From the NCBI RefSeq assembly GCF_030384885.1, contig NZ_CP128613.1: 64,000 nt of DNA. One strand, given 5' to 3'. Below are positions 38,901 through 41,900 of this stretch, in pieces (the stretch's first letter is position 1; each line of letters starts with the position of its first letter). Position numbers: made by a program. The DNA comes from Escherichia coli. Lineage in GTDB: Bacteria > Pseudomonadota > Gammaproteobacteria > Enterobacterales > Enterobacteriaceae.

Positions 38901-41900
38901 GAAAATCAACGCCCACTATTTTGACAAAAAAGCAGAAGATTATTTCTTCAATAAGTTTCTGTTGTCTTTTGATCCCTCTACACAGCAATGGAGTTACGCT
39001 GGCGAATCTCCCTGGTACGGAACGGCTGGTGCGGCGGTTGTGAATAAAGGTGATAAAACCTGGCTTATTAATGGCGAAGCCAAACCAGGATTGCGAACGG
39101 ATGCCGTATTTGAACTTGATTTCACCGGTAATAATTTAAAATGGAATAAACTTGCTCCCGTCTCATCACCAGATGGCGTCGCTGGCGGTTTTGCGGGGAT
39201 AAGCAATGACTCACTTATATTTGCCGGGGGGGCCGGATTCAAGGGGTCGCGGGAAAATTATCAGAACGGTAAGAACTATGCGCATGAAGGCCTGAAAAAA
39301 TCATATAGCGCTGATATTCATCTTTGGCATAACGGGAAATGGGATAAATCTGGCGAATTATCGCAAGGTCGGGCCTACGGAGTATCATTGCCCTGGAATA
39401 ATAGTTTATTAATTATTGGCGGTGAAACTACAGGCGGCAAAGCGGTGACGGATTCAGTTTTGATCTCTGTGAAGGATAATAAAGTCACAGTACAAAACTA
39501 ATGCTTCAGGGCCCCAGTAAAGGGGCCCTGCTATCAATTTATCATTTCAATTACGCGAAAATTATATGAACGCAATAATATCGCCCGATTATTACTATGT
39601 TCTTACCGTTGCTGGTCAGTCTAATGCCATGGCGTATGGCGAAGGACTGCCATTACCGGACAGGGAAGATGCGCCTCATCCCAGAATTAAACAATTAGCG
39701 AGATTTGCGCATACGCATCCCGGAGGCCCGTCATGTCACTTTAACGACATTATTCCACTGACTCACTGCCCACACGATGTTCAGGATATGCAGGGTTATC
39801 ACCATCCTCTGGCAACGAATCATCAAACACAGTACGGCACCGTTGGCCAGGCACTGCATATTGCACGGAAATTACTGCCCTTTATTCCTGATAATGCAGG
39901 GGTTCTCATCGTTCCGTGTTGCCGTGGCGGATCGGCTTTTACCGCGGGCAGCGAAGGGACATATTCAGAACGGCACGGAGCCAGCCATGATGCTTGTCGT
40001 TGGGGAACGGATACTCCGCTATACCAGGATTTAGTCAGCAGAACGCGAGCCGCACTGGCAAAAAATCCGCAGAACAAATTCCTCGGCGTATGCTGGATGC
40101 AAGGCGAATTTGACTTAATGACCAGTGACTACGCGTCACACCCTCAACACTTTAATCATATGGTTGAAGCCTTTCGTAGGGATCTAAAACAATACCATTC
40201 TCAGCTTAATAATATTACTGGCGCGCCGTGGTTTTGCGGCGATACCACCTGGTACTGGAAAGAAAGTTTCCCTCATGCGTATGAAGCTATTTATGGCAAT
40301 TATCAAAATAATATTTTAGCCAATATTATTTTCATCGACTTCCAGCAACAAGGTGAAAGAGGGCTGACGAACGCGCCTGATGAAGATCCGGACGATTTAA
40401 GCACGGGATATTTCGGTTCAGCGTACCGGTCACCGGAGAACTGGACGACGGCACTGCGAAGCAGTCATTTCAGCGCGGCAGCCCGTCGGGGGATTATTTC
40501 TGACAGGTTTGTAGAAGCAATTTTGCAGTTTTGGAGCGAAAGGTGAGCGGGGAGTTTATTCATGGGGGATGTCCTTGTCCGTTCCCAAAACAGGCAACAA
40601 AAAACAAATGAGATCAAGGTAATATCTCTTCACTTGCAGGCTCGAACAGCAGGCAATTGCCAATATAATAATCTGGCACAAGGGTGAAAAACGCGCACCG
40701 CATAAACCGTTGTTATTGCTTACAGATTAGCCGGATGCCTTAATAGACATCCGCGCCTTTTCGATTATGGCTCGGAAATCTACGAACCTCTGCACAGTTT
40801 ACTGGAACGTTTTGGACCACAGCGTTCACAGTACCGACCTGATATGCCGTTCTGGCGATTATAAGGCGACGGATTCTGGCAAATAGACGATGATAATATG
40901 CTTAATGATGTTCAAAGAAATTAGGCCATCATTATATTATTGCTTGCATTTTCTTTCATTCCCAAAAGCACCCGCCATTAATCCCAGGCGCATTATGCAA
41001 AGGAAAATGATTAGGTAAACAATAAGATTTATAATCAGGAAAGGCGACTCGCAATAAAACGCAAAGTCGCCTTAACATTGGTAAAATATGCCCTTTACTA
41101 CTCCTGTATCATGAACGGCTCATCACATTTAAAGCTGACGTTGATCCAGACTGCTATATATTGCCTTTATTTCATTTTTTACGCTTTCGCCACGGTACAC
41201 CAAAGACGTATCGTATCGTTGATACTTATCTTCCCGTGCAGCACTGAACCAGTTAAAAGATCCGACACACAGCAGTTCTTCATCCTCAATTACAATTTTG
41301 CTGTGGACACGATTAACCAATTTCGTAGCGATACCCATCTTATTGAGCTTTTCAACAGCATCATTCAGCAGATGTTTTTTCTCCTGACGCTTATCATCAT
41401 CGACATGCGCTATATTGCAGTTTTTATCCGTCACCACAGTAATATCAATGCCCCGGGAACGGGCCAAAGCCATTGATGCCAGAAATCCCGTTTGCTCCAT
41501 TTTTTGCCAGGATAACCAAGGGGAAATAATCGTTATTTTCTTTTGAGCTCCGGCAAGAGTCTTGTTCAAAAATTCATCATGCGGCTCCACGCCATGCAGC
41601 GTTGAAATTTGTGTATGTGCGGAAATTAAATCCTGTCGTTTATGAAACTCAAATTGCAACGCATTATTATCTGAAGAAAAGAGATATTTTGCCAATAACC
41701 CTCGCGGCGAAAATGCGGGCTGCATCTCGATAAGGTCCATATCGCCAAATACCAGAAAACTATCTTTAGCGCGTGAGACAGCAACATTGAGGATACTGCT
41801 GTTGCTATCAAGAAACCTGCCATCTTCATGTTTTGAGTAGACTGGAGAAAAGAGAACAATCGCCCTTTCCGCCCCCTGCAAGGAGTGCACAGTCCCCACT

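What the first reader, a model, noticed from the sequence alone, without database searches (positions are those of the whole stretch)
40547..41128. Second, heavily decayed copy of the HNH-gene N-terminus between nanS and the helicase-PLD gene
The + strand at 40640-40900 translates, with one frameshift and two stops, into a clear homologue of residues ~25-115 of the amber-interrupted HNH gene 11 kb away, in opposite orientation. This is a footprint of recombination between related island modules and ties the helicase-PLD gene to the same family of elements.
Basis: seen in the sequence. Interest (0 to 1): 0.4.

Follow-up and report, generated by a model that had tools for sequence, protein, structure and literature searches.

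The report
Decayed restriction-gene relic beside nanS
This stretch is the dead, truncated front end of a restriction-enzyme gene that is still full length at the same spot in about a third of E. coli genomes, so it is an ordinary pseudogene, already annotated, at the edge of a well-known defence-gene hotspot.

Summary
Window 40646-40882 (+) is homologous to codons 8-86 of the amber-interrupted SBD-HNH gene at 51855-52730 (-): 73-75% nucleotide identity, blastx E 2e-28. It carries one 1-bp frameshift and one CAA>TAA stop.

It is not a copy of that gene. It is 92% identical to a different, 76%-identical paralogue that is full length directly downstream of nanS in 1707 of 5426 complete E. coli genomes, including E. 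coli W. The fragment is therefore the positional orthologue of a resident gene.

The fragment lost its promoter-proximal region, start codon and first 20 nt through a 73-bp deletion between ACAGCAG repeats. It is cut after codon 86. All lesions are shared with K-12, and RefSeq/PGAP already annotates the pseudogene.

yjhR is a full-length type II Mokosh gene (MkoC). Both yjhR and the fragment lie outside the 77-nt direct repeats that bound the leuX island carrying the amber copy. A strain with an empty leuX site keeps both.

The 582-bp spacer is a pile of relics. It also holds the stump of a deleted HNH endonuclease gene, now the start of the small protein YthB, and a DUF4942-upstream remnant.

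Verdict: ordinary gene decay at the nanS edge of defence hotspot #37. Low interest.

The parts
39566..40546 (+). nanS (sialate O-acetylesterase), intact 326-codon ORF. It is the conserved left anchor of the region.
   Evidence: ORF list. 19 differences in 981 nt against K-12 nanS, with no gaps. Annotated nanS in L006, L010 and L014.
40465..40563 (-). ythB-like small ORF (32 aa). A chimera: the first 14 nt (MNKLP) are the start of a deleted 216-aa HNH endonuclease gene, and the rest is the small ORF that follows that gene in other strains.
   Evidence: Translations compared. ythB is annotated at the equivalent K-12 position. YthB protein was detected in K-12 (bioRxiv 10.1101/511675).
40549..40550 (.). 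Junction of a 641-bp deletion that removed almost the whole divergent HNH endonuclease gene (equivalent to L007 6210-6850). The flanks share imperfect microhomology, 10 of 14 nt.
40564..40645 (.). Remaining part of the divergent intergenic (promoter) region between the lost HNH endonuclease gene and the SBD-HNH gene.
   Evidence: 87-90% identity to L003 7844-7934 and L007 6865-6947.
40646..40652 (+). The surviving ACAGCAG repeat copy at a 73-bp deletion. The deletion removed an 18-bp palindrome, the ribosome-binding region, the ATG and the first 20 nt of the SBD-HNH gene.
40646..40882 (+). Pseudogene fragment: nt 21-258 (codons 8-86) of a 290-codon SBD-HNH gene, the phosphorothioated-DNA-binding restriction endonuclease. 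This is only the first half of the sulfur-binding domain. There is no HNH domain.
   Evidence: 92.7% nt identity to the intact L003 gene. blastx 85% + 92% aa, E 1e-38. The intact parent scores 436 bits on NF045808 against a cut-off of 180. PGAP pseudogene call in L001, L002 and L009.
40720..40721 (+). Site of the 1-bp deletion (frameshift) at gene nt 96.
   Evidence: Shared with K-12 and L009.
40862..40864 (+). Nonsense substitution CAA>TAA (Gln80 to stop).
   Evidence: Shared with K-12 and L009.
40883..40938 (.). Junction filler of unassigned origin. Homology to the intact gene ends somewhere in 40883-40892.
40939..41058 (.). Relic of the start codon and upstream region of a DUF4942 gene of CP4-like islands. 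It is in the same orientation as the island's own copy at 47448-47484.
   Evidence: 73-75% identity over about 118 nt to the DUF4942 upstream region, with weak hits of this kind (60-80% identity band) in 288 genomes, E 1e-11. Repeat D2.
41059..41128 (.). Unassigned 70 bp between the DUF4942 relic and the yjhR stop codon.
   Evidence: Homology to divergent plasmid mkoC genes stops at the stop codon, so this is not part of a conserved mkoC cassette. No Rfam match and no terminator-like site.
41129..44644 (-). yjhR, full-length 1171-aa SF1 helicase plus PLD nuclease. It is MkoC, the single gene of type II Mokosh.
   Evidence: PADLOC MkoC 1464 bits over residues 1-1169. Pfam AAA_11, AAA_12 and PLDc_2. 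Annotated yjhR.
44877..44953 (+). Distal 77-nt direct repeat: a copy of the leuX 3' end and downstream sequence. It is the island boundary on the yjhR side.
51855..52730 (-). Island-borne SBD-HNH paralogue, next to the integrase. It is inactivated by a single amber codon at 52227-52229 (AAG>TAG, Lys168).
   Evidence: 99% aa identity to the intact E. coli W WP_000199891.1. Intact in strain M21816.
52758..52775 (-). 18-bp palindrome TTGCGAGCATCATCGCAA, 27 nt upstream of the island allele's ATG. Its counterpart upstream of the nanS-side allele is what the 73-bp deletion removed.
52946..54214 (-). Tyrosine integrase of the leuX island.
54344..54420 (+). Proximal 77-nt direct repeat (96% identical to 44877-44953), overlapping the 3' end of leuX.
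54415..54499 (-). tRNA-Leu(CAA), leuX, the anchor of the island.

Best explanation
Window 40646-40882 is a non-functional remnant of a resident E. coli gene. That gene encodes an EcoWI-like SBD-HNH endonuclease, a restriction enzyme that cuts phosphorothioate-modified DNA. It sits immediately downstream of nanS, at the far edge of the leuX defence hotspot.

In the ancestor the order was: nanS; a divergent 216-aa HNH endonuclease gene on the opposite strand; the 290-aa SBD-HNH gene; then variable cargo. In the lineage that includes this window and K-12, four events destroyed the gene:
- An illegitimate-recombination or deletion event cut it after codon 86 and joined it to a DUF4942-upstream relic and the 3' side of yjhR (type II Mokosh).
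- A 73-bp deletion between 7-bp ACAGCAG repeats removed the upstream palindrome, the ribosome-binding site, the ATG and 20 nt of coding sequence.
- A 1-bp deletion shifted the frame.
- A CAA>TAA change added a stop.

A separate 641-bp deletion removed the neighbouring HNH endonuclease gene. It fused that gene's first five codons to a downstream small ORF, which created ythB.

The resemblance to the amber-interrupted gene 11.6 kb away is ordinary paralogy. That copy is cargo of an integrase-bearing island inserted in leuX, and it was inactivated independently and recently by one amber mutation.

Shown: the homology, the lesions, the positional orthology, the island boundaries, the empty site and the population counts.
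Inferred: the order of the events, the slippage mechanism of the deletions, and that the fragment has no function.
For: Homology and lesions.

Closer to the nanS-side allele (92% nt; 85-92% aa) than to the island allele (72-75% nt; 63-80% aa).

The same flanks (nanS 3' end and upstream intergenic region) are collinear with loci that carry the intact gene.

The gene is full length at this position in 1707 of 5426 genomes and present in some form in 4870. Contexts inspected: L003, L005, L006, L012. Other, independent truncation points are seen in L007, L008 and L010.

All lesions and the 3' breakpoint are identical in the window, K-12 (L002) and strain 2020CK-00188 (L009).

Up to gene nt 258, lineage-specific substitutions are spread evenly over codon positions (3, 3 and 5 at positions 1, 2 and 3). 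Among the intact alleles, 6 of 8 polymorphisms are at third positions.

No ORF with a start codon lies in the SBD reading frame. There is no Rfam match and no terminator-like site.

The island is bounded by 77-nt direct repeats and the empty site is confirmed.

PGAP annotates the fragment as a frameshifted, C-terminally truncated pseudogene.

Parent family: NF045808, 436 bits against a cut-off of 180. The biochemistry of EcoWI is described in PMC7461809.

The leuX locus is the known defence hotspot #37 (PMC12707154).
Against: The order and mechanism of the events cannot be observed directly.

About 126 bp of the spacer (40883-40938 and 41059-41128) has no assigned origin.

The codon-position argument rests on only 11 substitutions.

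"Full length" in 1707 genomes means at least 80% coverage in megablast. Intact ORFs were verified only in the loci inspected.

The retained upstream region evidently still supports translation initiation of ythB in K-12, so part of the spacer is not inert.
Confidence: 0.9

Rival explanations
1. The fragment is a second copy of the island's HNH gene, left by recombination between related island modules, so yjhR belongs to the same family of elements as the integrase island.
For: The two copies belong to the same gene family, are inverted, and bracket the variable region. A DUF4942-upstream relic next to the fragment shows that a CP4-like island once abutted this junction.
Against: The fragment is 92% identical to the resident nanS-side allele and 72-75% to the island allele, which equals the full-length distance between the paralogues. 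There is no tract of elevated identity that would indicate exchange. yjhR and the fragment lie outside the island's direct repeats, and both persist in a strain with an empty leuX site. E. coli W carries both paralogues intact at the two ends, so two copies are a normal arrangement. Intact nanS-side genes have neighbours other than yjhR.
Confidence: 0.05
2. The fragment is retained because it still does something. Candidates are a promoter or UTR element for ythB or yjhR, an RNA, or a short SBD-derived peptide.
For: The junction is fixed in about 1730 genomes at 95-99% identity. The adjacent upstream region still drives translation of YthB in K-12. Promoter-like hexamers are over-represented in 40300-41400: 9 found against 2.3 expected.
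Against: No start codon is available in the SBD frame. There is no Rfam match and no terminator-like site. Divergence from K-12 is higher in the spacer (3.1%) than in nanS (1.9%). Substitutions are spread over codon positions and a nonsense change was tolerated. AT-rich relic DNA is expected to give promoter-like matches. Other lineages truncate or delete the same gene at different points.
Confidence: 0.05
3. The similarity is chance or low-complexity.
For: None.
Against: 77 bits against a shuffle maximum of 24.7. blastx E 2e-28 and 1e-38. The matching motifs are conserved, non-repetitive SBD motifs.
Confidence: 0

Closest known systems
EcoWI-like SBD-HNH phosphorothioate-dependent restriction endonucleases (NCBIfam NF045808). 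EcoWI is characterised in PMC7461809 and PMC9521924.
   Same: The intact parent gene (290 aa, 33.3 kDa) scores 436 bits on NF045808. It has an N-terminal sulfur-binding domain that aligns to the ScoMcrA SBD structure 5zmo, and a C-terminal HNH_2 domain. E. coli W carries this gene intact beside nanS, plus the 76%-identical island paralogue of 33,410 Da, which matches the published 33.4 kDa of EcoWI.
   Different: The fragment keeps only codons 8-86. It has no start codon and no HNH domain, and it carries a frameshift and a stop, so it cannot be an enzyme. Which of the two E. coli W genes is EcoWI was not established. The mass match is only a hint.
ScoMcrA / SprMcrA (type IV, PT-dependent; structures 5zmm, 5zmn, 5zmo and 7cc9)
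   Same: The parent gene's residues 5-142 align to the ScoMcrA SBD (E 1e-6). The domain logic is the same: an SBD reader plus an HNH cutter.
   Different: Sequence similarity is distant. ScoMcrA also has an SRA domain. The fragment covers only about half of the SBD.
Other decayed genes in and around the E. coli leuX hotspot #37, for example the truncated K-12 yjhR pseudogene
   Same: Truncated or frameshifted remnants left by turnover at the leuX-nanS variable region. In K-12, yjhR itself is a C-terminal fragment. The hotspot is described in PMC12707154.
   Different: This remnant has no gene name, and no feature in the curated K-12 reference record NC_000913.3, where 4536032-4536596 is blank. 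PGAP-annotated genomes do list it.
Type II Mokosh (MkoC), the neighbour yjhR
   Same: yjhR matches MkoC over its full length. yjhR is used as the fused MkoA-MkoB example in bioRxiv 10.1101/2022.12.12.520048.
   Different: It is unrelated in sequence and in mechanism to the SBD-HNH gene. The adjacency is a scar and not an operon. The genes converge, and homology to divergent plasmid mkoC genes stops at the stop codon.

Membership tests
SBD-HNH PT-dependent restriction endonuclease (NF045808, EcoWI-like): the fragment | Significant sequence homology to family members | tested here: met
   blastx E 1e-38 to the intact nanS-side allele and 2e-28 to the island allele.
SBD-HNH PT-dependent restriction endonuclease (NF045808, EcoWI-like): the fragment | Complete N-terminal sulfur-binding domain (about residues 1-140) | tested here: not met
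   Only codons 8-86 remain, interrupted by a frameshift and a TAA stop. An 87-residue N-terminal deletion of the SprMcrA SBD already abolishes PT dependence (PMC7461809).
SBD-HNH PT-dependent restriction endonuclease (NF045808, EcoWI-like): the fragment | C-terminal HNH nuclease domain (PF13391, residues about 181-236) | tested here: not met
   Homology ends at gene nt 258-268. The downstream DNA is unrelated.
SBD-HNH PT-dependent restriction endonuclease (NF045808, EcoWI-like): the fragment | Uninterrupted ORF with a start codon | tested here: not met
   The 73-bp deletion removed the ATG. No SBD-frame ORF has a start codon.
SBD-HNH PT-dependent restriction endonuclease (NF045808): the intact parent allele (L003, L006, E. 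coli W) | Score above the curated cut-off, with both domains present | tested here: met
   436 bits against a cut-off of 180. HNH_2 39.5 bits against a cut-off of 21.
SBD-HNH PT-dependent restriction endonuclease: either allele | PT-dependent DNA cleavage | not testable with these tools
   Needs enzyme assays, as done for EcoWI (PMC7461809).
Cargo of the leuX-integrated integrase island | Lies between the island's direct repeats and is absent from the empty site | tested here: not met
   The repeats are at 44877-44953 and 54344-54420, and the fragment is at 40646-40882. Empty-site strain 2020CK-00188 retains both the fragment and yjhR.
Type II Mokosh (MkoC): the neighbour yjhR | Single protein with an SF1 helicase and a C-terminal PLD nuclease, matching the MkoC profile over its full length | tested here: met
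   PDLC03924, 1464 bits, residues 1-1169 of 1171. AAA_11, AAA_12 and PLDc_2.
Type II Mokosh (MkoC): the neighbour yjhR | Anti-phage activity | not testable with these tools
   Needs phage challenge assays.

The most novel reading that the evidence does not exclude
The 582-bp nanS-yjhR spacer may be a layered record of at least four separate events: a 641-bp deletion, a 73-bp deletion, a truncation after codon 86, and a DUF4942 relic. One of these created a validated E. coli small protein, YthB, by fusing the start of a lost HNH endonuclease gene to a downstream ORF.

Beyond that, the parallel inactivation of both phosphorothioate-sensing nucleases in this strain might reflect selection and not drift. 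For example, they could conflict with a Dnd/Ssp phosphorothioate modification system, which is itself cargo of the same hotspot in 2% of isolates (PMC12707154). Mokosh could then be functionally replacing PT-dependent restriction.

The probability given applies to the selection part of this reading.
Probability: 0.12. Interest if true: 0.4.

Novelty: already known. Interest (0 to 1): 0.15.

Why it matters
It matters little as a discovery. The pseudogene is already called by NCBI's pipeline in thousands of genomes, and its family is biochemically characterised.

It has three modest uses.
- It fixes the nanS-side boundary of defence hotspot #37 to within a gene, and shows that the boundary moves by truncating that gene at different codons in different lineages.
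- It supplies a missing annotation for the curated K-12 reference record, where the interval is blank.
- It explains the origin of the small protein YthB as a by-product of a deletion.

It also corrects a tempting misreading. Two related genes that bracket an island are paralogues with separate histories, and not a recombination scar that links yjhR/Mokosh to the island.

Tried and rejected
- Searched for a degenerate copy of the leuX 3' end near the fragment, which would make it an old island boundary. None was found with up to 3 mismatches in 18-mers.
- Searched Rfam at permissive E-values over 39500-45500. Nothing lies in the spacer.
- Ran a terminator scan. It found none, and the GGCGACT...AGTCGCC hairpin near 41045-41073 lacks a T-run.
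- Tested by blastx whether 40880-41140 still encodes DUF4942 protein. It does not. The similarity is at DNA level to the upstream region only.
- Recalled that the K-12 pseudogene yjhY might be this fragment. That was wrong. yjhY lies between sgcX and yjhP, and the literature search for yjhY returned only irrelevant hits.
- Tried to obtain the EcoWI accession or sequence from PMC7461809 and its supplement. It is not given there, so which E. coli W paralogue is EcoWI rests only on a molecular-mass match.
- Did not run the costly genome contigs or metagenome scans for yjhR neighbours in other species. The evidence from 5426 E. coli genomes already answered the question.
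Full report
**What the window is.** The window is E. coli chromosome. It runs fim, nanC, nanM, nanS, a 582-bp spacer, yjhR, an integrase island, leuX and ahr. It is 99.99-100% identical to strain 2013C-4282 (NZ_CP027579.1) except for two internal island deletions.

**Checking the observation.**
- Six-frame translation of 40547-41128 shows, on the + strand...LEQQAIANIIIWHKGEKRAPHKPLLLL in one frame. After a shift it reads ...HPRLFDYGSEIYEPLHSLLERFGPQRSQYRPDMPFWRL*GDGFWQ.
- The gene at 51855-52730 (-) reads MTSDKTLKQAISNITIWRKGEQRAPHKPLLLL...GRLFNYGSEIYEPLLDLLERYGPQRRDQRPDMPFWRLKGDGFWE..., with one amber codon at 52227-52229.
- blastn gives two collinear blocks on opposite strands: 132 nt at 73% (E 4e-18, 77 bits) and 59 nt at 75%.
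- 200 shuffles of the fragment reach at most 24.7 bits. blastx gives E 2e-28.
The homologous span is 40646-40882, ambiguous to 40892. That is codons 8-86 when counted from the ATG used by intact homologues.

**What the gene family is.**
- Both the island gene (amber repaired) and an intact relative score 436-443 bits on NCBIfam NF045808, "phosphorothioated DNA-binding restriction endonuclease", against a cut-off of 180. Both have a C-terminal Pfam HNH_2 domain.
- Residues 5-142 align to the sulfur-binding domain of ScoMcrA, PDB 5zmo.
- The characterised E. coli member is EcoWI. It is a 33.4-kDa dimeric enzyme that cuts GpsAAC/GpsTTC DNA and restricts dnd+ plasmids in vivo (PMC7461809; PMC9521924).

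**The fragment is not a copy of the island gene.**
- Searching the spacer against 5426 complete E. coli genomes finds it in 3503. In 1728 the whole spacer is present at 95-99% identity. In about 1750 only query 100-346 matches, at 90-95% identity, inside an intact 873-bp gene.
- That gene sits directly downstream of nanS. This was seen in L003, L005, L006 and E. coli W.
- Used as a query, it is found in some form in 4870 genomes and at 80% coverage or more in 1707.
- The window is collinear with those loci through the nanS 3' end, the upstream intergenic region and gene nt 21-258.
- The fragment is 92-93% identical in DNA to this nanS-side allele (85-92% aa). It is only 72-75% identical to the island allele.
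- The two alleles differ from each other by the same amount over their full length: 71% nt and 76% aa.
- There is no tract of raised identity that would suggest exchange between the two copies.
- E. coli W has both paralogues intact, inverted, at the two ends of the leuX-nanS interval. A pair of inverted paralogues is thus a normal arrangement here, and this window holds a decayed version of it.
- The window's island allele is 99% identical to the E. coli W allele and differs by a single AAG>TAG change. It is intact in strain M21816.

**Lesions in the fragment**.
1. A 73-bp deletion between two ACAGCAG repeats. It removed 53 bp of upstream sequence and the first 20 nt of the gene. The upstream part included an 18-bp palindrome TTGCGA-N6-TCGCAA that is conserved upstream of both paralogues.
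2. A 1-bp deletion between 40720 and 40721.
3. A CAA>TAA change at 40862-40864.
4. Loss of everything after gene nt 258-268.

All four lesions are identical in K-12 (L002) and in strain 2020CK-00188 (L009), so they predate the spread of this haplotype. Up to nt 258 the 11 lineage-specific substitutions fall 3, 3 and 5 on codon positions 1, 2 and 3. Among the intact alleles, 6 of 8 polymorphisms are at third positions. The numbers are small but they fit neutral decay. No ORF with a start codon lies in the SBD frame. There is no Rfam match and no terminator-like site.

**The rest of the spacer is also made of relics.**
- In L003, L007 and L010, a 216-aa HNH endonuclease gene lies divergently between nanS and the SBD-HNH gene. 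In the window a 641-bp deletion (junction 40549/40550) removed it.
- Its first 14 nt (MNKLP) are now fused to the small ORF that normally follows it (MNAHLSRQNCK...). The fusion gives MNKLPAHLSLQNCKIASTNLSEIIPRRAAALK at 40465-40563.
- In K-12 this ORF is ythB (b4802). Its protein product has been detected.
- Downstream of the fragment, 40939-41058 is 73-75% identical to the start codon and upstream region of DUF4942 genes of CP4-like islands, with weak hits of this kind in 288 genomes. It has the same orientation as the island's own copy at 47448-47484.
- About 126 bp (40883-40938 and 41059-41128) remains unassigned.

**Does the fragment tie yjhR to the island? It does not.**
- yjhR (41129-44644, -) is a full-length MkoC, the single gene of type II Mokosh: 1464 bits over residues 1-1169.
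- The integrase island is bounded by 77-nt direct repeats, 96% identical, at 44877-44953 and 54344-54420. The second overlaps the leuX 3' end.
- I built a synthetic empty-site sequence by joining the yjhR upstream region and the repeat to leuX and ahr. It matches strain 2020CK-00188 over 100% of its length at 99.0% identity. That strain's order is ahr-leuX-yjhR-fragment-nanS.
- yjhR and the fragment are therefore outside the island.
- The yjhR 3' end occurs in 1739 genomes and the truncated fragment with its flank in 1728. The junction is one inherited event, and no E. coli with yjhR beside an intact SBD-HNH gene was seen.
- Intact nanS-side genes are followed by McrBC, BREX or PDDEXK/JetD. 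A 3'-only remnant is followed by a type III R-M system. Other lineages cut the gene at other points, near codon 48 in L007 and L010.
- Divergent mkoC genes on small plasmids align only up to the stop codon, so the spacer is not part of a Mokosh cassette.

**Context and verdict.** The leuX region is the published E. coli defence hotspot #37, occupied by defence genes in 97% of isolates (PMC12707154). The SBD-HNH gene is the last recognisable gene on its nanS side, and cargo turnover repeatedly erodes it. PGAP already annotates the fragment as a frameshifted, C-terminally truncated pseudogene in the identical strain, in K-12 derivatives and elsewhere. The curated K-12 reference record leaves the interval blank. 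This is ordinary gene decay of a known family at a known hotspot. Interest is low.

Noticed in passing
window 40465-40563 (-), junction 40549/40550: The small ORF equivalent to K-12 ythB is a chimera created by a 641-bp deletion. Its first five codons (MNKLP), and presumably its RBS and promoter, come from a lost 216-aa HNH endonuclease gene that is intact in L003, L007 and L010. The rest is the small ORF that follows that gene.
   Followed up: yes
window 52758-52775 (-); L007 6960-6977: An 18-bp palindrome TTGCGA-N6-TCGCAA lies 23-27 nt upstream of the ATG of both SBD-HNH paralogues, although their coding DNA is only 71% identical. It may be an operator or promoter element. It is the only such site in the 64-kb window, and the 73-bp deletion removed the fragment's copy.
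   Followed up: partly
window 40939-41058, and 47448-47484: A relic of about 120 nt, 73-75% identical to the start codon and upstream region of a DUF4942 gene of CP4-like islands, sits between the SBD-HNH fragment and yjhR. This suggests that an older island once abutted this junction.
   Followed up: yes
window 48378-48684 and surroundings: Compared with RefSeq NZ_CP027579.1, the window's island lacks 8.9 kb (radC, DUF932 ... WYL, 5' part of hsdR) and 2.9 kb (rest of hsdR and most of hsdM). A 307-bp hsdR piece remains between the two gaps. hsdS (48906-50090) is left as an orphan. Either a natural variant or an assembly difference.
   Followed up: partly
window 41129-44644 (-): yjhR is an intact 1171-aa type II Mokosh gene (MkoC) here. 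K-12 retains only a C-terminal fragment annotated as a pseudogene (1017 bp in the reference record).
   Followed up: yes
window 44877-44953 and 54344-54420: 77-nt direct repeats (96% identical) flank the leuX island. The predicted empty site exists in strain 2020CK-00188 (L009) and in three other genomes.
   Followed up: yes
window 39566-40546; L001 13242-13586; L002 5083-5586: In the loci inspected, PGAP labels nanS as 'incomplete, missing C-terminus' where it annotates the antisense ythB-like ORF, although the 326-codon nanS ORF is intact. This looks like an artefact of how the pipeline resolves overlapping features.
   Followed up: partly
L012 32974-33846 and L013 8159-9034 (E. coli W, NC_017635.1): E. 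coli W carries both SBD-HNH paralogues intact. The integrase-side one is 33,410 Da, which matches the published 33.4 kDa of EcoWI. The nanS-side one is 33,312 Da.
   Followed up: partly
window 52227-52229 (-): The amber codon of the island allele is a single AAG>TAG change relative to E. coli W. Both phosphorothioate-sensing nucleases of this strain are therefore dead, one anciently and one recently.
   Followed up: partly
plasmid hits H184-H187: Divergent mkoC genes (about 69% nt identity) occur on small E. coli and Salmonella plasmids of 6.6-17.5 kb. Their neighbours were not examined.
   Followed up: no
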